Assembly (NCBI RefSeq): GCF_041886205.1
Contig: NZ_CP169031.1
DNA from: Escherichia coli
GTDB taxonomy: Bacteria > Pseudomonadota > Gammaproteobacteria > Enterobacterales > Enterobacteriaceae
DNA: 64,000 bases
Direction: 5' to 3' (one strand)
The position numbers were made by a program, and so were the translations under genes. Below, in pieces: positions 4,731 through 59,765 of this stretch. Position 1 is the first letter of the stretch. Each line of letters opens with the position of its first letter. The notes below the pieces were generated by a model. The model saw nothing but the letters and a program-made list of their open reading frames with translations, did not search any database and was not told the origin of the DNA.

Positions 4731-6650
4731 ATGGAACAGTTCAATATCAATAAAGGGGTGACGATCAAACCTGGGCTTGACGTGCTTCCCCCGCCAGTGA
4801 CTGATGATGAATATCGCGCATTAATGGCCGGTGAGGACCGCTATCTGATGACGGAATCCAACACCCTGGAGGAAATCGAGGCTACGTTCTTCTATGACAC
4901 GCCGATCCACTGGTGTGCTACGGATTTACTGGAGGCGATTAGTTCTACTCGTTTGCAGCTACACCGGACCATGCAGGCATTTGTCCGGGCATTGAACCAG
5001 AAGCTGAATGGTACCGGAATCTCTGCGGGGAGTGATAAAACGGGGGATGTGGCCCAGAACGGTGCACGCGCGATCGGCGGGGCTGAAATTGGCCGGGCAC
5101 GTAACGTTAACGGGCTGCCGGTCCTGCCAGCCATTATTCCGCTCAGTGATGGTCAGACTATCAGCATTCTGTTTCATAGCCCGACAGCGGAAAACCGGAT
5201 CACCAATAGCGATACGCTGATTGCTTTCCAGTTCTTACTGAATAAAAAAGACGTTACTCATACCGTTGCTCCGATGAGTGGACGTGATATGACGCTGGCG
5301 CAGGTCACCATGAAACTTGCCAACCTTGCAGAGAAAAACTCGGCAAAATTCCAGCGTGCGCAGAAGAAGAAAAAAGCCCTGGTTGATGAAATAACCCAAC
5401 TACAGGCTGACAGTGACCAGAAAGAGGATGCCATGAGCGACCTCGCGGATCAGGTGGCAGCGGTAGAAGGGCAGAAGGTAGATCTGGAGCAGAAAATTAA
5501 CGCTGTTGCATCGGAAGCGGATTCTCTTTATGAAGAGAATGAGCGTTTGCAGACGGAGATTGATCAGCTCAATCGAACTGGTGGGCGCGAAACCATTGCT
5601 CCTGCGGGGATGACTGGTGGACACTCTCGCGCGATGACGGATCGCCTTGCAAGTATCAAAAATCGTATGCATATGAACGGGGAAGTGACGCTCAGTAATG
5701 GTGCATCAATGAAGCAATTCATTGAGGACGGTGAAGGGTATATCCAGTTAACCGATTCGGATGGCAGCGTGTACATGATCAAGGCTAAATCCATACAGGG
5801 TGTGGACATGGCAGATGCGATCGGCAAGCTGTTTAAAGCCTATAAAGCGGGTAATGTATCGGAATACCTGGTCCAACCAGAAGAACATAAACCGGAAAAC
5901 GTCGAACCTGAACCAGCGGAGGATACCGGTAGCTCTTCGCCTGAACCAGAAATCTCTGTAGGTGCATATCGATATGCCCTGCAAATGCGTCCGGCGGCCC
6001 CTGGCGCAATACCTGAAGGTAACAAAGCAATTCTGCCGCGCCCTGATGAAGGTGACCCGTATTATGAATATGCACGCTACGGCATTGCTACTTACGATAC
6101 CCCGCTTTCTGATCAGCAAATGAGTGAGTACGACCTGAAGTTATTGCCTCGCGAGGATTCTTTCGACTTCTTGGCGAAGACACTTACTAATGGTCCGTTT
6201 GGCAAATATGCACAAAAAGCTCTGGAGCTGGCCACCAGCTCACCAGACGAGTTCCGCGTAATGCTGAAAACTCAGTTTCAAAAAACTTTCCCCAATATTG
6301 CGTTTCCGGGGGGCGCTGGCACCGAGAAAATGGTGCAGAGCATGATCAATGCATTGCAGGCCGAAGTCGGTGAGATTACTCAGCCAGAACCTGCCCCGGC
6401 ACAGCCTGATGAAACGGTTAGCGAAGCAGATGCAGAGGCTAATAAAGCCATTGAATATCTCAATAACGTGATGGATATGCAAAGCACTGACATGGCGGAG
6501 ATCCGTAACGCCCGGGGTAATGTCCGGGAAGCGATTGCAGCCCTTCAGGCTGCCGGGCGTTTTGAGGAAAACGAAGAGCTGGTTAATGGCGCTGCTCGCC
6601 ACTTGGCTGATCTGCTGGTAGCAATCCAGAAAGCGGGGGTAGCGGCATGA
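4731..6650 (+). CDS. darA: DarA, internal head protein, defence against restriction
   Basis: 639 aa (same length as I recall for P1 DarA); follows hdf, precedes ddrA/ddrB; Glu/Ala-rich coiled-coil segments. Confidence 0.75.
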   Translation: MEQFNINKGVTIKPGLDVLPPPVTDDEYRALMAGEDRYLMTESNTLEEIEATFFYDTPIHWCATDLLEAISSTRLQLHRTMQAFVRALNQKLNGTGISAGSDKTGDVAQNGARAIGGAEIGRARNVNGLPVLPAIIPLSDGQTISILFHSPTAENRITNSDTLIAFQFLLNKKDVTHTVAPMSGRDMTLAQVTMKLANLAEKNSAKFQRAQKKKKALVDEITQLQADSDQKEDAMSDLADQVAAVEGQKVDLEQKINAVASEADSLYEENERLQTEIDQLNRTGGRETIAPAGMTGGHSRAMTDRLASIKNRMHMNGEVTLSNGASMKQFIEDGEGYIQLTDSDGSVYMIKAKSIQGVDMADAIGKLFKAYKAGNVSEYLVQPEEHKPENVEPEPAEDTGSSSPEPEISVGAYRYALQMRPAAPGAIPEGNKAILPRPDEGDPYYEYARYGIATYDTPLSDQQMSEYDLKLLPREDSFDFLAKTLTNGPFGKYAQKALELATSSPDEFRVMLKTQFQKTFPNIAFPGGAGTEKMVQSMINALQAEVGEITQPEPAPAQPDETVSEADAEANKAIEYLNNVMDMQSTDMAEIRNARGNVREAIAALQAAGRFEENEELVNGAARHLADLLVAIQKAGVAA

Positions 6651-7024: not shown

Positions 7025-10012
7025 ATGAGCTTAAGCGATCAGGTGGTAATGGCCACCAGCATAGAAACGCTGATCGAGCTGCTAAAGAACCTGCCCGGTT
7101 ATGGGCGGGTTTCGTATGTGGTGACAGCGAAGGGAGACGAGGTAAAAACAGCGTTTGATATCGTCGATGCCTCAGCTCTTTTGGTATCCAATACTCTGGA
7201 TGGGAAAATTAATCCTGACTATCCCCAGGAACTTCAGCCGCGCGACCGGACCCGCGCATCCAGCCTTCTTCAGGTTAACCAGATATCCAAAGATTTGCGG
7301 CCTGCTCAGCTTACTGATTCCGGTTTATCCAGCCATGGTGCGCCGATAATTGGTGAGGACAATGCCGTTGAGTCAGGTAATGGACGGACCATGGGGATCA
7401 TCAAAGCCTATCAGGACGGCAATGCGGATCGGTATCGTGAGTACCTGATTGATCATGCGACCGAATTCGGCATACGACCTGAAAAGGTTGAATCAATGAC
7501 GGCTCCGGTACTGGTGCGCCGCCGGTTAACCAAGGTTGACCGCGTTCAGTTTGCCAAGGACTCAAATATTTCTGATCTTCAGGAAATGGCAGCCAGTGAA
7601 AAGGCTTTTGTTGATGCCGACAGCATAACACCGGCGATGATGGCGCTTTTTAACCCGTCAGAAAGCGGAGATCTGCTTAGCCGCAGTAATGACGCGTTTA
7701 TTCGCGGATTTATGACGCAAGTTGGTGCCACACAGGCGGCTGGCCTTGTAACTGAAGATGGGCGACCAACACGGCAACTTGTAGACCGTATACAAAACGC
7801 GATCTTTGCCAAGGCATATAAGGATGCGCGCCTGGTAAGGATGGTTGCAGAAGAACCTGATCCGGACATGCGTAATGTTCTGACGGCGCTTAATGCGGCA
7901 GCCAATGATTTTGTCCAGATGCAGGCTTTATCAGGAGAAGCGCACAAGCAGGCTGTGACAACTATTGTTGATGGCATTGAGACAGCGGATAGCCTCGATA
8001 AAAAGGCGCTGGCGGCATTGAAAGATGCGGTAGACCTGGTAAGGCAATCGAAGGAGTCAGGCCAGCATATTACCGATGTTATTGCTCAGGGGGATATGTT
8101 CAGCGAAACGGCCCCGGAAGTGAAAGCACTCGCGTTGTTCATCGTCGCGAATAACCGTAGCGCGAAGCGTATGGCCTCCGCCTTTAAGTTGATGGCTCAA
8201 CGTATCAATGATGAGTTACAGCACCAGGGCCAGGCGCTGGGGGATATGTTTGGCGGTGGTGATGTGTCGTTACAGGATATCCTTCGCCAGGTGTCTCAGG
8301 AACTGGAAAACGAAGGCATGCAAGGGATATCCGGCGGTCTTTTCGAGTCCGTTTCCGGCGGTAGTTACAATGGTGTTGCTCCATATACCAGTTTGCTATT
8401 ACATCGGGCATCCGGCATCAAAGACATTATTCATCTGATCAGGCTGCTTTCCCGTACAGATCCCCAGGATGAACAGCTTGTACAAGTGCTTGCGCATTTT
8501 GTTCGAATGCCTGTTGCCGACGTGAAAAAATGGTGCCGATTATTCGGTATCAGCAATTCGTTACTTCGCGGCTTGTTAAATCACGCATCCTCCCTTGGGC
8601 GCGATGGCTTTGACGAGATAGCGCAGGCGATAAAAAACGGAGATATGCCACCAGCTATTGACTGGTTTTCCATTCGCCCAACCAGGGTGAAAGCATTCCT
8701 TAGCGCGGCGCATTCGGCATCACCATTGGCAGAAATGGTTCAGAGGTTGTCGCTCATATTCACAGACCATACCGCGTTGGGTGATTTGACTCTGGACGAG
8801 ATGAAAGAAGCCTCCATTCAGTGGGCCGATCAACAAAATGAGGTTAACTCTGACTTCTTGCCAGCATTCAGGAAGGCCGTTAGTAAAGCTGATGATGCCC
8901 GTGGAATTCTGAGGGCATTTAAGGCATTGCAAAGTCAGGTTAATAAACATGTCGGTGATATCGATGGGGTAACGGCGGAAGGCAGGGATATCCTTAAAGA
9001 GCACGGCATAACGCCAGAGTTTATTGATGAGATCAGGACTGATATGCAGCGTGAGGTCGTATCGTCCCTGCAAATCGTAGCCAGAGCGTTGGCGGATGCT
9101 AATCCGAAGAGTGCGGCCATTGTTAACCGTGTTATTGGTGATATTGAAGCATCGGAGGGCATGGGGGCGCTGAAACTCTTCCTTTCGCGAGCGTTTAATC
9201 CTAACGGCAATATTCTCCCCGGCATTATTGGTGAGGCTAAAAAGTATGTCAGCGAAGAAGAACTTGAGCATCTTGACCAACTACTTAAGCGATTCTCATA
9301 TAACCCGCAGACACGCTGGCAAATGAATCAGCAAAGTATGGGTTCGGTCCACGAGAAAGTGTTATCTGCCATGAACAGTGCGATCGCCAACTCATCCGTA
9401 TCTGAAGAAAAAGCTCTTGAGTGGGCCGACTCTTTTATCACGGAAGAAGTGGAAGAAGCCCGCGCTGGACAGAATGGTGGGATAGACCTGCGCAAGGAAC
9501 TTGCTGATATTTATCGCCTGACCGGCGGTAAAATTTCGACCTTATCAAAGGTGGTTCACCACCAGGGAAGGGCATATGCAAATATTAATGGTGTTGTTGC
9601 TGTCAATTTGAACGATGAAAATGCAAGTGCACTGTGGCACGAGCTGGGTCATCATCTTGAGTACAGTAACCCTGGTTTGTTAGAGAAAGCCCGGTCATTC
9701 CTGAAGGCCAATGTTGAAGGGGATAAGCCATCTTTCGTTAATATCGGTGGGCGTGGCAAGCCTGAATGGTGCTTCAGATCTCGATTGAGTAATATTTATA
9801 TGGCGAAGGTATACCCGCCAGCCTCAGTAAGTAACACCGGGAAAATTCGGCAGAAATCACCGACTATTTCCAAAACGTCAGCAACGGAAGTATTCTCTAT
9901 GGCTCTTCAGTTGTATCATGACAAAGAGGCCGCTGCCGCATCACTGATGAATGGTGACGGATTGCTGGAACTGTTATTAGGTGTGGCAAAGGAGCTAAAT
10001 AATGCAGATTAA
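7025..10012 (+). CDS. ddrB: DdrB-like large virion protein (Dar system)
   Basis: 995-aa ORF after ddrA; length and position match P1 ddrB as recalled. Confidence 0.65.
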   Translation: MSLSDQVVMATSIETLIELLKNLPGYGRVSYVVTAKGDEVKTAFDIVDASALLVSNTLDGKINPDYPQELQPRDRTRASSLLQVNQISKDLRPAQLTDSGLSSHGAPIIGEDNAVESGNGRTMGIIKAYQDGNADRYREYLIDHATEFGIRPEKVESMTAPVLVRRRLTKVDRVQFAKDSNISDLQEMAASEKAFVDADSITPAMMALFNPSESGDLLSRSNDAFIRGFMTQVGATQAAGLVTEDGRPTRQLVDRIQNAIFAKAYKDARLVRMVAEEPDPDMRNVLTALNAAANDFVQMQALSGEAHKQAVTTIVDGIETADSLDKKALAALKDAVDLVRQSKESGQHITDVIAQGDMFSETAPEVKALALFIVANNRSAKRMASAFKLMAQRINDELQHQGQALGDMFGGGDVSLQDILRQVSQELENEGMQGISGGLFESVSGGSYNGVAPYTSLLLHRASGIKDIIHLIRLLSRTDPQDEQLVQVLAHFVRMPVADVKKWCRLFGISNSLLRGLLNHASSLGRDGFDEIAQAIKNGDMPPAIDWFSIRPTRVKAFLSAAHSASPLAEMVQRLSLIFTDHTALGDLTLDEMKEASIQWADQQNEVNSDFLPAFRKAVSKADDARGILRAFKALQSQVNKHVGDIDGVTAEGRDILKEHGITPEFIDEIRTDMQREVVSSLQIVARALADANPKSAAIVNRVIGDIEASEGMGALKLFLSRAFNPNGNILPGIIGEAKKYVSEEELEHLDQLLKRFSYNPQTRWQMNQQSMGSVHEKVLSAMNSAIANSSVSEEKALEWADSFITEEVEEARAGQNGGIDLRKELADIYRLTGGKISTLSKVVHHQGRAYANINGVVAVNLNDENASALWHELGHHLEYSNPGLLEKARSFLKANVEGDKPSFVNIGGRGKPEWCFRSRLSNIYMAKVYPPASVSNTGKIRQKSPTISKTSATEVFSMALQLYHDKEAAAASLMNGDGLLELLLGVAKELNNAD

Positions 10013-10313
10013 AATCGCAGCGCCATTAGGCGGAGATGCCATTATCGAATTTGATGATAATGAAGAAGTTTCCGGGCGTTTAAGCATTATCTCCGGTGAC
10101 ATTACCGAGGACATGATCGCTGAAGCCATAGCTGGGGCAAATCCCAATAGCTATATGGGATTCGTTAACACCCTTGATGCTCCCGCAAGTGATGTTCTCC
10201 GAACGCTGCATCTTTACGCTGGCTGGTTTGTTGATTGGCCAGCAGTAGATGGTGGCGATGAGGACGACGACGACGATGATTTTGGTGATCATGTAGACCA
10301 GATCGTATATTGA
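10002..10313 (+). CDS. Hypothetical acidic protein
   Basis: 103 aa, overlaps ddrB stop, C-terminal Asp/Glu run (GGDEDDDDDDFGD); followed by intrinsic terminator. Confidence 0.5.
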   Translation: MQIKIAAPLGGDAIIEFDDNEEVSGRLSIISGDITEDMIAEAIAGANPNSYMGFVNTLDAPASDVLRTLHLYAGWFVDWPAVDGGDEDDDDDDFGDHVDQIVY

Positions 10314-10317
10314 AGAA

Positions 10318-10345
10318 ATCCCGCCAATCGGCGGGATTTTTTTTA
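10318..10345 (+). terminator. Rho-independent terminator (end of dar operon)
   Basis: ATCCCGCC-AATC-GGCGGGAT stem-loop followed by T8. Confidence 0.75.
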
Positions 10346-11125
10346 ATCGCTTTCCACTTCTTCCGTGGTGTTTTCTTGCAGTTCTGTTAATGCAGCACGA
10401 CATAGGTTCCGGGCATTGGCTATAGCCACACTTTTGACTTCATCCGTCATCGTGCAGGTAATGTACTGATCGAGTTCTTCAGCGCGGATGATGCTTTTGC
10501 CAATCAGAAACTGTATTTGCCAGAGCAGATCGGCATCCATAATCAGAATTTCTGCCGGGCCTTCAGGGCCAGCCGGGAAGGAAACATAAGACTGTTTGCC
10601 CAGGCCGACAACTCGACAACTTGCTTCAAGAATTGCGCGCTTGAGGTCTGACTTTATAACGGAAACAGGTTGATTTTCACCAGTGATTACGCCGTTGACA
10701 TGGAAAGGCATGTAGCTTGAAATACGCTCCACTTTCCACACGCCAGCAAGCGATCCTTCATGCAGCACAATGGGGGTAACCGCGAGTTTCATCTCACCAT
10801 ATAACTGCTGGCAGATAGCTGGATTGCTGAATACATCTAAAGGCTCACATTCAAACAGCGGCGCAATCTGCATGAGGTCCATCATGGTCATCCCTGGGGT
10901 ACGAGCAGTAATGAATTTGCGCATACCAGTATCCATTGCGCTCCAGATTGCTACACCATGCTTTTTGCTCACTTCTTCAGTAAAGCCAAGGTGGCACATG
11001 ATGGTTTTTTCGATAGCCAGATCAGAGATAGAAACCTTTTCGCCAGGTACTCCATCATTATTGATGGTCACTTCGACACTCTGGCCATTACGCAGGCGGT
11101 ATTGAATTGCTTTAGTATTTTCCAC
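10343..11125 (-). CDS. Hypothetical protein (last gene of ssb operon)
   Basis: 260-aa ORF, 7 nt downstream of the DUF2829 gene, same strand; no recognised motif. Confidence 0.6.
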   Translation of the reverse strand: MENTKAIQYRLRNGQSVEVTINNDGVPGEKVSISDLAIEKTIMCHLGFTEEVSKKHGVAIWSAMDTGMRKFITARTPGMTMMDLMQIAPLFECEPLDVFSNPAICQQLYGEMKLAVTPIVLHEGSLAGVWKVERISSYMPFHVNGVITGENQPVSVIKSDLKRAILEASCRVVGLGKQSYVSFPAGPEGPAEILIMDADLLWQIQFLIGKSIIRAEELDQYITCTMTDEVKSVAIANARNLCRAALTELQENTTEEVESD

Positions 11126-11131
11126 GTTAAA

Positions 11132-11809
11132 TCACTCCACTACAAACCAGTCACATGCCAGTAAGTCGCCTACAGAAGGAACCCACGGAACAACTACACC
11201 TTGTGCATTTTTTAAGGCGAAATAAGCACCATACGGAACGAGGTCGCCGGGGAAATATCCCTTAATGGCTTCCATTCGTGCCGGGTACTGTCCTTCAGGA
11301 ACCAGCCAGCAGAATTGGTTTTCGCCGTTCCACCCGCGTCGAGCAACTTTCTTGCCATCCTTCAGCCACATCAGCGCGTCAGAAAAGTCGGCTGCTTCAA
11401 GGTCGATTTCTTCTTGTAGAGTAGCGATACCGCCAGCAGAAATAGTTACGTCCCTGGCTGTAATGAATGTCACCCCATTGTGACCTTCAATGCTGAGCGA
11501 TACCCCATTTTCGAAGAAGTCGTTAGTCCGACTAAAGCCTTCTTCAAATGTTTTTTCTGGTGAATAGGACAGAGATCCGTCCTCATAAGCGACCAGATAT
11601 CCGCCAATTTCTGGTCGGTGTTTTTGCAAAAATATTTTATCAACATGGACTTTTACCCCTTCTGGCTCAACGACTTCGATGTTGCAAAAAAGGACCACAT
11701 CCATTAGGGCGATAATTTCGATATCTTTGATTTTTGAGGCGCGAACTGTTTTATGGCTTTTGTATTTTGGAAGTGCCGTCAAAAGCTCTTTCGTTGTCAT
11801 GTTATTCAT
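11132..11809 (-). CDS. DUF2829 (Tad2-like) domain fusion protein
   Basis: 225 aa from ATG at 11809 (RBS GAGGAAAG; track ORF extends to 11977). C-terminal ~85 aa (ALMWLKDGKKVARRGWNGENQFCWLV...VVPWVPSVGDLLACDWFVVE) matches my recollection of the DUF2829 signature; N-terminal 140 aa unknown. Confidence 0.6.
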   Translation of the reverse strand: MNNMTTKELLTALPKYKSHKTVRASKIKDIEIIALMDVVLFCNIEVVEPEGVKVHVDKIFLQKHRPEIGGYLVAYEDGSLSYSPEKTFEEGFSRTNDFFENGVSLSIEGHNGVTFITARDVTISAGGIATLQEEIDLEAADFSDALMWLKDGKKVARRGWNGENQFCWLVPEGQYPARMEAIKGYFPGDLVPYGAYFALKNAQGVVVPWVPSVGDLLACDWFVVE

Positions 11810-12006
11810 AGTCTTTCCTCTGCTTAAAACCTGATGTATTGCGCCTTCAGGTGGGTCAGGAATGTTTTCCCACCAGCGAACGCAATATCTCGGGGTGTTC
11901 TTTTCGTGAAAAGCGTGTGCCATTGCCAACTTTGGCGTTTGTTTGCGAGTTCGTGCTTTTGTCGGCGTCTGGACCACCGCTTTTCTTTCAGTCGTTTTTT
12001 ACACAT

Positions 12007-12495
12007 TCAAAACGGAATATCGTCGTCAAAGTCCATTGGAGGTTCGTTATTGGCGTTGCTCTGAGGTTTACCGCCACCACTGTATTGCTGGTGGTTTTGA
12101 GGTTGGTTTGATTGCCCCCAGCCATTTGAGGACTGTGAATCGTCACGGCGAGCGCCGATCATTTGCATGGTGCCGCCCTGGCTGACGATAATTTCCGTCG
12201 TGTAACGTTCTACACCGGCGTCATCAGTCCACTTACGGGTTTTAAGTTTCCCTTCGATGTAGACCTGAGAACCTTTTCGTAAATACTCACTCGCAATTTC
12301 AGCAAGTTTTCCGAACAAAACGACTTTATGCCATTCTGTTTGCTCTTTCTGTTGGCCCGTTTGCTTATCGCGCCATGATTCATTCGTTGCGATGCTGAGT
12401 CTTCCGACTGCGCCGCCATTTGGTATATACCTGATCTCCGGGTCTTGCCCCAGGGTACCAATCAGGATGACTTTGTTTACACCGCGTTGTGCCAC
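12007..12495 (-). CDS. ssb: Single-stranded DNA-binding protein
   Basis: 162 aa, GTG start; OB-fold N-terminus ([18 protein letters not shown]), Gly/Gln-rich linker, acidic tail DFDDDIPF. Confidence 0.95.
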
Positions 12496-12514
12496 TTTTC
12501 TTACCTAATAAAAT

Positions 12515-12531
12515 AAATTAATTAGAGCAAT
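12515..12531 (-). promoter_or_regulatory. C1 repressor operator-like site upstream of ssb
   Basis: AAATTAATTAGAGCAAT, 16/17 match to reverse complement of P1 operator consensus ATTGCTCTAATAAATTT. Confidence 0.6.
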
Positions 12532-59082: not shown

Positions 59083-59748
59083 ACTTGCCGGGTACGTCTC
59101 CGGCGAGGGCTTCCACCTCCGTATGCTTTTCGGCGCACCGCGCCCTGGCTGCAATTCGGTAACAGGGGATGCATAACCCTGGCTTCCAGCGTGATTAGCG
59201 CTTTCAGCATGACGGGATATACCCGTAAATTCGTGGAACTGTACCCAAAGTGCTGTTAAGCACCGCTGTTACGCTGAAAAGAAAACGCAACAGGAAAGGA
59301 CGCTGACCAACAGATGGCCCCTTCTCGTTCATCTGGTTAATCACACCAGCGCCCTTACCTGTTGTGTCTCCCCGTTCCCTAATACACAGACGGGGACACT
59401 CTGCGGTCGATTTTTTGACGGGGGACGACTCATACCCCGTGGCGTCTGGCTTCTTAGGCCGCTACCATCATCAGATCATCGTTTGCATTTACTTTAATGG
59501 TCAGTTTCTAAACCGCCGCAAAGTCGCTAACCATGACGAAAACCCTGAAAAAAAACGCCCACCCGAAGATGGGCAAACTGGAAGCTCGTAACGCACTTCG
59601 GAGTTGCCACTTAGGCGCATGGTCAACCTGGCAACTCGGTGGTTTGTCTGGGAGGACTAGGCCCAGCCATGCTTACCGCCGCGCCTGTCGCGGCTAACAG
59701 CTAAATCGCTCTATAAATCACGATTCATTGAGGCGATATTACACTAAT

Positions 59749-59765
59749 AAATTTATTAGAGCAAT
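59749..59765 (-). promoter_or_regulatory. C1 operator (perfect consensus) at dmt 3' end, upstream of tRNA/tci/ban operon
   Basis: AAATTTATTAGAGCAAT, 17/17 to reverse complement of consensus; overlaps a partial forward copy (ACACTAATAAATTT). Confidence 0.75.

What the first reader, a model, noticed from the sequence alone, without database searches (positions are those of the whole stretch)
10343..11809. DUF2829 (Tad2-like) fusion protein and a 260-aa partner in the C1-controlled ssb operon
The 225-aa protein ends in an ~85-aa region (ALMWLKDGKKVARRGWNG...VPWVPSVGDLLACDWFVVE) that matches my recollection of the DUF2829 signature, the fold of Thoeris anti-defence Tad2 proteins that sequester cyclic nucleotide immune signals. 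Here it is fused to an unknown 140-aa N-terminal domain and followed 7 nt later by a 260-aa unknown gene. The operon has a C1 operator upstream of ssb, so it would be switched on at induction. A fused Tad2-like sponge with a dedicated partner would be an unusual counter-defence arrangement.
Basis: partly seen in the sequence, partly recalled or inferred. Interest (0 to 1): 0.7.

Follow-up and report, generated by a model that had tools for sequence, protein, structure and literature searches.

The report
Tad2-type immune-signal sponge, Dec-like fusion
A P1-like phage-plasmid carries an early gene whose C-terminal third is a genuine Tad2-family "sponge" domain for bacterial immune signals, joined to a capsid-decoration-like barrel domain. 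The gene is already annotated and common, and the neighbouring 260-aa gene is P1's IsaA rather than a dedicated partner.

Summary
On the minus strand, ssb (12007-12495) is followed by a 225-aa gene (11132-11809) and a 260-aa gene (10343-11125), downstream of a C1 operator (12515-12531).

**The Tad2 domain is real.**
- Residues 138-225 match Pfam PF11195 at E=5.7e-22.
- They match solved Tad2 structures by sequence (ModTad2, E=6e-21) and by fold.
- The ADPR-pocket residues W160, N161, W209, S212 and D215 are kept.

**The "unknown" N-terminus is identifiable.** It is homologous to the OB-fold of the phage L decoration protein Dec (profile E=2.6e-7).

**The 260-aa gene is P1 IsaA (94% identity), not a dedicated partner.**
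- P1 has IsaA alone.
- Among 5,426 complete E. coli genomes, 325 carry isaA and 178 carry the fusion gene. Only 115 carry both side by side.
- Six of ten IsaA contexts lack a Tad2 gene.

**Prior knowledge.**
- RefSeq already labels the gene DUF2829/Tad2.
- A 2025 preprint reports Tad2 in 56% of P1-like and 93% of D6-like phage-plasmids.
- Another 2025 preprint noticed 6E3C(Dec)+Tad2 fusions and excluded them from testing.

**Verdict.** This is most likely an early-expressed sponge for a Thoeris-type signal. It is an untested architectural variant of a known family, and the interest is modest.

The parts
12515..12531 (-). C1 repressor operator (equivalent of P1 Ossb/Op21) upstream of ssb
   Evidence: ATTGCTCTAATTAATTT has 1 mismatch to the consensus. 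There are 8 such sites in the window against 0.02 expected. It aligns to the annotated P1 operator.
12007..12495 (-). ssb, first gene of the operon
   Evidence: ORF of 162 aa. Annotated as ssb in SJ46 and P1.
11810..12006 (-). 197-nt spacer between ssb and the fusion gene; conserved, role unknown
   Evidence: Lies within a 755-nt block (window 12560-11806) that is 98.5% identical to P1. No terminator or promoter match. RNA fold z=-2.5. No Rfam match.
11519..11809 (-). Fusion protein residues 1-97: Dec-like OB-fold / small beta-barrel domain
   Evidence: AF2 pLDDT about 90. Foldseek to 6e3c E=1.2e-3. Profile A5 against PDB: Dec 6e3c E=2.6e-7. No Pfam family.
11399..11518 (-). Fusion protein residues 98-137: low-confidence beta-rich linker, exchanged independently of both domains
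   Evidence: pLDDT 40-48. Segment identity to homologs is uncoupled from the two flanking domains.
11132..11398 (-). Fusion protein residues 138-225 plus stop: Tad2-like (PF11195) domain
   Evidence: W160, W209, D215, D220 and W221 are invariant in 41 homologs.
10343..11125 (-). isaA homolog (260 aa), function unknown, probably translationally coupled
   Evidence: 94% identical to P1 IsaA residues 60-320. phrog_2326, of unknown function. No Pfam, NCBIfam, PADLOC or PDB sequence match.
10316..10339 (.). Hairpin between convergent hxr and isaA; likely bidirectional terminator ending the operon
   Evidence: AAATCCCGCC-GATT-GGCGGGATTT read. Only sub-threshold Rfam leader/terminator hits. Not flagged by the consensus scan.

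Best explanation
The 225-aa protein is a Tad2-family sponge.

**Proposed mechanism**
- When C1 repression is lifted, at induction or on infection of a naive cell, the ssb promoters transcribe ssb, the fusion gene and isaA together.
- The C-terminal domain is inferred to assemble like solved Tad2 proteins, as a tetramer. Its pockets at the protomer interfaces would trap an ADP-ribose-derived TIR signal.
- The candidate signals are His-ADPR or 3'cADPR, possibly also cyclic pyrimidine mononucleotides as shown for ModTad2.
- Trapping the signal would keep Thoeris-type effectors silent.

**The other parts**
- The N-terminal Dec-like barrel and the linker form a separately folding module that is exchanged independently. 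Its role is unknown; it may be a scaffold or a second binding module.
- IsaA is an independent accessory gene of the P1/D6 lineage. It normally closes this kind of early accessory operon.

**Shown versus inferred**
- Shown: domain identity, fold, pocket residues, operator, gene order and distribution.
- Inferred: oligomer state, ligand, timing of expression and anti-defence effect.
For: **Tad2 domain**
- PF11195 E=5.7e-22.
- PDB sequence hits to ModTad2, HgmTad2 and SPO1 Tad2.
- Fold match at probability 1.0, with target-normalised TM-score up to 0.86.

**Pocket residues**
- The SPO1 residues W25, N26, W73, S76 and D79, and the HgmTad2 residues W21, N22, W87, S90 and D93 (papers read), align to W160, N161, W209, S212 and D215.
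- W160, W209 and D215 are invariant in 41 homologs. S212 is kept in 40 of 41 and N161 in 31 of 41.

**Closest solved relative**
- ModTad2, about 45% identity and only a single one-residue gap. It sequesters His-ADPR and inhibits type II Thoeris. It also binds cUMP/cCMP.

**Early expression context**
- A C1 operator lies upstream and no internal terminator was found.
- In D6-like elements the homolog sits in the operon downstream of cre, with dUTPase or a methylase.
- In SopranoGao it sits next to the repressor/cro-like genes.

**Relatives and distribution**
- Relatives add the proven sponge domain Sequestin (PF21825).
- DefenseFinder detects Tad2 in 56% of P1 and 93% of D6 phage-plasmids.
Against: - No binding or phenotype data exist for this protein or for any Dec-like+Tad2 fusion. 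This class was explicitly removed from the 84-protein sponge screen.
- In that screen 19 of 84 canonical sponges inhibited none of the seven systems tested.
- Secondary pocket positions differ from SPO1 Tad2: T65 to N, D67 to Q, H71 to V, T78 to G. Ligand specificity therefore cannot be read off.
- Dec-type modules are trimeric on capsids, whereas Tad2 is a tetramer, so the oligomer state of the fusion is uncertain.
- The gene is dispensable for the lineage: P1 lacks it.
Confidence: 0.6

Rival explanations
1. Multi-part counter-defence unit. The Dec-like barrel would be a second ligand-binding (sponge) module, and/or IsaA would work together with the fusion protein.
For: - Tad2 is often fused to other sponges (Acb4, Sequestin). 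'Guilt by fusion' is how Sequestin was found.
- The same N-domain heads 3-4-module proteins containing Tad2 and Sequestin.
- Tad2 followed by IsaA recurs in three diverged lineages at 40-49% IsaA identity. Two of them share the same 6-nt spacing. A fourth lineage has one gene between them.
Against: - IsaA occurs without Tad2 in P1 and in six of ten contexts.
- About 210 of 325 isaA-positive E. coli genomes lack the adjacent fusion gene.
- The fusion occurs without IsaA.
- Recombination breakpoints fall exactly at the gene junction: the Tad2 domain is identical while IsaA is 49% identical between the window and L007.
- IsaA shows no sponge-like features: 260 aa, two lobes, no known fold beyond a weak DUF2591/NinX-like match.
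- The N-domain has no known ligand.
Confidence: 0.15
2. Structural protein. A Dec-like capsid decoration protein would carry the DUF2829 domain as a distal knob, so the domain would serve as an adhesin or stabiliser rather than an intracellular sponge.
For: - The N-domain is homologous to the capsid-binding OB-fold of Dec.
- A stand-alone homolog lies between the portal and major capsid genes in Ralstonia phage GP4.
- Another is annotated as a capsid decoration protein in phage Dolphis.
- A rare variant carries a tail-fibre repeat.
- The sponge-screen authors filtered such fusions out.
Against: - The gene sits in a C1-repressed early operon with ssb, not in a late or structural operon.
- In D6-like elements it follows cre and dUTPase.
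- In SopranoGao it is in the immunity/early region.
- P1 makes normal virions without it.
- The signal-pocket residues are strictly conserved.
- Other stand-alone N-domains are in non-structural regions.
Confidence: 0.12
3. Anti-CRISPR of the AcrIIA7 type: a DUF2829 protein that inhibits Cas9.
For: The domain matches AcrIIA7/HgmTad2 chains (8kbi, 9kzr) at E=9e-12 to 9e-11. DefenseFinder labels the family 'Tad2 AcrIIA7'.
Against: - The Tad2 discovery paper argues that DUF2829 proteins are anti-Thoeris rather than anti-CRISPR, and that Cas9 binding was never shown.
- AcrIIA7 itself binds gcADPR and cGG.
- From my own knowledge, not tested here: E. coli and Salmonella hosts carry type I, not type II, CRISPR-Cas.
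Confidence: 0.03

Closest known systems
ModTad2 / MoTad2 (Myroides odoratus prophage Tad2; PDB 8V3E, 9EIB)
   Same: - Best sequence match (E=6e-21, about 45% identity, only a single one-residue gap), including the extended region between beta2 and alpha2.
- Same fold.
- W-N...W-x-x-S-x-x-D pocket motif conserved.
   Different: - ModTad2 is a stand-alone 88-aa protein, whereas here the domain is the C-terminal 88 aa of a 225-aa protein.
- The ligand has not been tested here.
- Several second-shell residues differ.
SPO1 Tad2 (gp34.65; PDB 8SME/8SMF) and HgmTad2/AcrIIA7 (8KBI-8KBM)
   Same: The Pfam PF11195 fold and the core gcADPR-contacting residues are conserved.
   Different: - Lower similarity (E about 1e-9 to 1e-11).
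- The HgmTad2 insertion that forms the cGG pocket is about 17 residues shorter here, so dinucleotide binding is not predicted by homology.
Multi-domain sponge fusions (Acb4-Tad2 of phage Pm86; Tad2-Sequestin PF21825)
   Same: A Tad2 domain joined to another module in one polypeptide. Close relatives of this protein carry Sequestin at the C-terminus.
   Different: The fusion partner here is a Dec-like OB-fold that is not a known sponge. This class (PDB 6E3C domain plus Tad2) was excluded from the published screen.
Phage L decoration protein Dec (PDB 6E3C)
   Same: The N-terminal barrel is homologous to the Dec OB-fold: profile E=2.6e-7 over Dec residues 14-91, sharing the GGYL...Y.S..AFE..Y motif.
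   Different: - The gene is in an early, repressor-controlled operon.
- The Dec trimeric spike is not recognisably present (low pLDDT).
- No evidence of capsid binding.
P1 IsaA (YP_006486) / phrog_2326
   Same: The 260-aa protein is 94% identical to P1 IsaA residues 60-320.
   Different: In P1 it directly follows ssb and is annotated 60 residues too long. IsaA has no assigned function and is non-essential in a P1 CRISPRi screen.

Membership tests
Tad2 / DUF2829 (Pfam PF11195) | Significant full-length match to the family HMM | tested here: met
   E=5.7e-22, model positions 2-73 of 73. All 25 longer relatives also match.
Tad2 / DUF2829 (Pfam PF11195) | Fold: N-terminal helix followed by an antiparallel sheet, superposable on solved Tad2 structures | tested here: met
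   Foldseek probability 1.0 to 24 Tad2 chains, with target-normalised TM-score 0.60-0.86. The domain's pLDDT is mostly 73-90, but 44-60 over the loop at about residues 171-190.
Tad2 / DUF2829 (Pfam PF11195) | Conserved ADPR-signal pocket residues (SPO1 W25, N26, W73, S76, D79) | tested here: met
   They align to W160, N161, W209, S212 and D215. W160, W209 and D215 are invariant across homologs; S212 is 40 of 41 and N161 is 31 of 41. Secondary contacts differ.
Tad2 / DUF2829 (Pfam PF11195) | Homotetramer with pockets at protomer interfaces | not testable with these tools
   Only monomer prediction was available. The overall pTM of 0.44 indicates no fixed orientation between the domains.
Tad2 / DUF2829 (Pfam PF11195) | Binds a TIR-derived or cyclic-nucleotide signal and relieves Thoeris, Pycsar or CBASS defence | not testable with these tools
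   Requires biochemistry or a phage assay. This fusion class was excluded from the published screen.
Tad2 / DUF2829 (Pfam PF11195) | Short stand-alone protein of about 90 aa (typical of sponges, not strictly defining) | tested here: not met
   225 aa, three segments.
Dec-type capsid decoration protein (PDB 6E3C) | OB-fold capsid-binding domain | tested here: met
   Profile E=2.6e-7. Foldseek E=1.2e-3, 26% identity over 95 columns.
Dec-type capsid decoration protein (PDB 6E3C) | C-terminal trimeric beta-helix spike | tested here: inconclusive
   Residues 98-137 are beta-rich but have pLDDT 40-48. There is no significant match.
Dec-type capsid decoration protein (PDB 6E3C) | Encoded and expressed with the late or structural genes; present on virions | tested here: not met
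   The gene location was tested. It lies in the C1-controlled ssb operon, and in early or accessory regions in D6-like elements and SopranoGao. Virion presence was not tested.
P1 IsaA family (phrog_2326) | Full-length sequence similarity to P1 IsaA | tested here: met
   94% identity over 261 columns. phrog_2326 E=2e-149.
Dedicated two-gene system (Tad2 fusion plus IsaA) | Obligate co-occurrence of the two genes | tested here: not met
   In complete E. coli genomes, 325 carry isaA, 178 carry the fusion gene and 115 carry both adjacent. P1 lacks the fusion gene. Six of ten IsaA contexts lack Tad2.
C1-controlled operon of P1 | 17-bp C1 operator overlapping the promoter region upstream of the first gene | tested here: met
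   12515-12531, 1 mismatch, collinear with the annotated P1 Ossb. Repression itself was not tested.

The most novel reading that the evidence does not exclude
The Dec-like OB-fold barrel is itself a new immune-evasion module. It could be a second signal-binding site, or a device that concentrates or tethers the Tad2 sponge, for example on assembling capsids or in higher-order assemblies. On this reading, the recurrent order dUTPase, Tad2, IsaA in P1/D6 phage-plasmids would mark a cooperating anti-defence cassette in which IsaA has a new counter-defence activity.
Probability: 0.15. Interest if true: 0.65.

Novelty: new variant of a known kind. Interest (0 to 1): 0.35.

Why it matters
P1 is a classic model phage and its relatives are common phage-plasmids in pathogenic E. 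coli and Salmonella.

**A natural test pair.** P1 and this element differ by a clean 684-nt cassette holding exactly the Tad2-fusion ORF. That gives a near-isogenic pair for asking whether a temperate phage-plasmid needs a signal sponge on induction or on entering a Thoeris-positive host.

**An untested class.** Dec-like+Tad2 fusions are frequent, occurring in 178 of 5,426 complete E. coli genomes, yet they were filtered out of the systematic sponge screen. Their ligand range and the role of the extra barrel are open questions.

**Limits.** If the protein behaves like ModTad2, the result is confirmatory rather than surprising.

Tried and rejected
- **N-domain word-indexed homolog search:** returned only close Tad2 fusions and no new architectures. 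tblastn against phages was more useful.
- **IsaA function:** no hits in Pfam, NCBIfam, PADLOC, PDB by sequence or PDB by profile.
  - DUF2591/NinX, E about 1e-2
  
  I rejected a nuclease reading. The only invariant acidic residue is D219 and no catalytic motif is conserved.
- **Promoter and terminator scan:** no internal signals. It missed the obvious hxr/isaA hairpin.
- **Rfam on the operon:** only sub-threshold terminator-like hits.
- **Published ModTad2-His-ADPR paper:** not held, so the residues specific to His-ADPR could not be checked.
- **isaA as an IS1-related or IS-derived gene:** rejected. The name only reflects its position next to IS1 in P1, and this window has no IS1 there.
- **P1 IsaB as a match to either protein:** rejected.
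- **A second Tad2 or IsaA copy in the window:** none.
Full report
**What the window is.** The region is a P1-like phage-plasmid.
- Window 9500-12500 is 99.2% identical to Salmonella phage SJ46. It also matches P1, P7, RCS47 and other Punavirus records.
- The gene order is darA-ddrA-ddrB-hxr on the plus strand, converging on isaA, the 225-aa gene and ssb on the minus strand.
- The block 10343-12006 is 100% identical to a 95.6-kb E. coli plasmid.

**The observation.**
- The 225-aa reading starts at ATG 11809, behind a GAGGAAAG Shine-Dalgarno sequence. This is the start used by RefSeq and by every homolog.
- The frame is open for 56 more codons, up to a GTG at 11977.
- The 260-aa gene starts at GTG 11125, 6 nt after the upstream stop. 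A GGAG inside the end of the upstream gene makes translational coupling plausible (inference).
- The C1 operator is real. ATTGCTCTAATTAATTT lies at 12515-12531, collinear with the annotated P1 Ossb/Op21.
- No terminator-like site lies on the minus strand between ssb and isaA.
- A strong hairpin at 10316-10339 sits between the convergent isaA and hxr genes.

**The C-terminal domain is Tad2.**
- Pfam PF11195 (now named 'Tad2-like') matches at E=5.7e-22 over the whole model.
- phmmer against PDB gives ModTad2 at 6e-21, HgmTad2/AcrIIA7 at 9e-12, SPO1 Tad2 at 1e-9 and SptTad2 at 3e-9.
- An AF2 model built from 41 homologs gives a mostly confident C-terminal domain. Foldseek places it on 24 Tad2 chains with probability 1.0.
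- The residues that hold gcADPR in SPO1 Tad2 are W25, N26, W73, S76 and D79. In HgmTad2 they are W21, N22, W87, S90 and D93. They align to W160, N161, W209, S212 and D215.
- W160, W209 and D215 are invariant in 41 homologs. S212 is kept in 40 of 41 and N161 in 31 of 41.
- Second-shell positions differ: T65 to N, D67 to Q, H71 to V and T78 to G. Specificity therefore cannot be deduced.
- The nearest solved relative is ModTad2, which sequesters His-ADPR from type II Thoeris. It also binds cUMP/cCMP from Pycsar in a second pocket.

**The N-terminal part is not an orphan.**
- Residues 5-97 fold confidently (pLDDT about 90) into a small beta-barrel. Residues 98-137 are modelled poorly (pLDDT 40-48). 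The overall pTM of 0.44 indicates independent modules.
- Foldseek links the barrel to the phage L decoration protein Dec (6e3c, E=1.2e-3).
- A 22-sequence profile of the domain hits the Dec OB-fold at E=2.6e-7, sharing the GGYL...Y.S..AFE..Y motif.
- No Pfam family covers it.
- The domain occurs as a stand-alone protein of about 90 aa in diverse phages:
  - In Ralstonia phage GP4 it lies between the portal and major capsid genes.
  - In Pseudomonas phage Dolphis it is annotated as a capsid decoration protein.
  - In a 39-kb coliphage and the jumbo phage PaBG it lies in non-structural regions.

**The fusion family is modular.**
- More than 140 clusters of homologs exist, mostly on contigs of about 90 kb from E. 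coli, Salmonella and Shigella.
- The three segments recombine independently. Examples are N 58% / middle 48% / Tad2 100% identity, against N 69% / middle 88% / Tad2 62%.
- Their GC content differs: 40%, 46% and 52%.
- The same Tad2 allele is fused to dUTPase (P0056).
- Other relatives carry Sequestin (PF21825) at the C-terminus, or an extra beta-barrel (phrog_419) in the middle.

**What the literature already says.**
- Tad2 is a DUF2829 sponge for 1''-3' gcADPR (10.1101/2023.05.01.538930).
- Tad2 is frequently fused to Acb4 and to PF21825. Such fusions were used to discover Sequestin (10.1101/2025.07.12.664507).
[quoted passage not shown] The Dec-like+Tad2 class has therefore been seen but deliberately left untested.
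- A DefenseFinder survey of phage-plasmids reports 'Tad2 AcrIIA7 (anti-Thoeris)' in 93% of D6-like and 56% of P1-like elements (10.1101/2025.09.12.675607).
- RefSeq annotates this gene as a DUF2829 or Tad2 family protein.

**The 260-aa 'partner' is P1 IsaA.**
- It is 94% identical to P1 IsaA residues 60-320.
- P1 differs from the window by the exact absence of window 11122-11805 (684 nt), replaced by 6 nt. In P1, isaA therefore uses the RBS and ATG that start the Tad2 fusion gene here. This is a clean cassette insertion or deletion.
- The ssb-hxr interval is a known variable hot-spot, RD-2 (PMC6906374).
- isaA is non-essential in P1 (PMC10695390).
- The IsaA family is small: 30 representatives among 1.84 billion proteins.
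- All fully sequenced phage records with a match are P1-like or D6. Every longer contig examined carries a P1/P7-type c1 repressor gene and a cre-like recombinase next to it.

**IsaA contexts.** I examined ten contexts.
- In D6-like elements IsaA is the last gene of an operon downstream of cre. The order is c1 on the opposite strand, then cre, a gene of about 110 aa, a gene of about 150 aa, an optional dUTPase, an optional Tad2 gene, and IsaA.
- Tad2 lies directly upstream of IsaA in the window type, in D6/L007 and in L009, where it is a dUTPase-Tad2 fusion. In L011 it is one gene away.
- Tad2 is absent in P1, L004, L006, L018, L021 and L022.

| In 5,426 complete E. coli genomes | Genomes |
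|---|---|
| isaA present | 325 |
| Tad2-fusion gene present | 178 |
| Both present as the adjacent block | 115 |

- Klebsiella phage SopranoGao has the fusion gene but no IsaA.
- Between the window and L007 the Tad2 domain is identical while IsaA is 49% identical. Recombination therefore breaks exactly at the junction.
- The adjacency is recurrent but not obligate. The simplest reading is that both genes share an accessory-gene slot.

**IsaA itself.** Its function remains unknown.
- The AF2 model is good (pLDDT 87, pTM 0.83).
- Foldseek gives weak DUF2591/NinX-like matches.
- No sequence library recognises it.
- The invariant residues Y9, G124, L126, W130, A164, G174 and D219 suggest a binding or structural protein rather than an enzyme (inference).

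**Most likely mechanism.** This is inferred, apart from the anatomy.
- De-repression of the ssb promoters yields early synthesis of the fusion protein.
- Its Tad2 domain oligomerises and sequesters an ADP-ribose-derived TIR signal. By nearest-relative logic this is most likely of the His-ADPR/3'cADPR type.
- That protects the induced or infecting phage-plasmid from Thoeris-type abortive infection.
- The Dec-like barrel is an exchangeable accessory module of unknown role.
- I put 0.6 on this account. I put 0.15 on a genuinely multi-part device (N-domain as a second binder and/or IsaA cooperating), 0.12 on a structural or decoration role, and 0.03 on an anti-CRISPR role.

**Verdict.**
The Tad2 identity, the fusion and the C1 control hold. 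A dedicated partner does not, and the arrangement is not especially unusual.
- This is an untested architectural variant of a known sponge family in a well-known phage lineage, already picked up by automated annotation.
- Interest is modest at 0.35. The main value is the natural P1-with and P1-without cassette contrast, and the unexplained Dec-like module.

Noticed in passing
window 11122-11809; L002 (P1) 5524-6486: The reference P1 IsaA annotation (320 aa) looks about 56 codons too long. P1 joins the RBS and ATG that start the DUF2829 gene here directly to isaA, giving a 264-aa product (MTAQNTK...). That product is the abundant natural form (P0124, 803 member sequences).
   Followed up: partly
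phage RCS47 FO818745.1 15495-15794 and 25823-26602: In RCS47 the DUF2829 fusion gene is split ('part 1' and 'part 2') by an insertion of about 10 kb. The N-domain and isaA are therefore about 10 kb apart.
   Followed up: no
window 11810-12006 (- strand): The 197-nt spacer between ssb and the fusion gene lies within a block that is 98.5% identical to P1. It stays open in frame with the downstream gene in both phages. It folds more stably than shuffled sequences (z=-2.5) and has no Rfam match. Its role is unknown.
   Followed up: partly
window 10316-10339: A perfect 10-bp hairpin (AAATCCCGCC-GATT-GGCGGGATTT) fills the gap between the convergent hxr and isaA genes, with a T-run on the plus strand. 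It is a likely bidirectional terminator. The consensus scan did not report it.
   Followed up: partly
window 12515, 28214, 28297, 43640, 49406, 59738, 59749, 63271: There are eight C1-operator-like 17-mers in the window, against 0.02 expected. They include an overlapping inverted pair at 59738-59765.
   Followed up: no
window 11132-11809: The three segments of the fusion gene differ in GC content (N-domain 40%, linker 46%, Tad2 domain 52%). They show uncoupled identity to homologs, which indicates domain shuffling inside one gene.
   Followed up: yes
L007, L009, L011, L018, L021, L022, L004, L006, L017 (D6): D6-like phage-plasmids share an operon downstream of cre: a gene of about 110 aa, one of about 150 aa, optional dUTPase, methylase or Tad2 genes, and an IsaA-family gene last. 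In the P1/SJ46 lineage the Tad2-IsaA end of this module sits after ssb instead.
   Followed up: partly
proteins P0100, P0106, P0110 (relatives, not in the window): Three- and four-module relatives exist. They combine the Dec-like N-domain, a second small beta-barrel (phrog_419; motif GDWI..G..YPCKPDIF..TYEP), a Tad2 domain and sometimes Sequestin. The middle barrel shares a motif pattern with the N-domain and may be a distant repeat of it.
   Followed up: no
L017 (phage D6) 2594-3034: D6 orf114 is annotated as 146 aa ('similar to C-terminal half of J46_0048'). The near-identical locus L007 has a 225-aa gene there. The D6 start may be mis-called, or its N-domain may be truncated.
   Followed up: no
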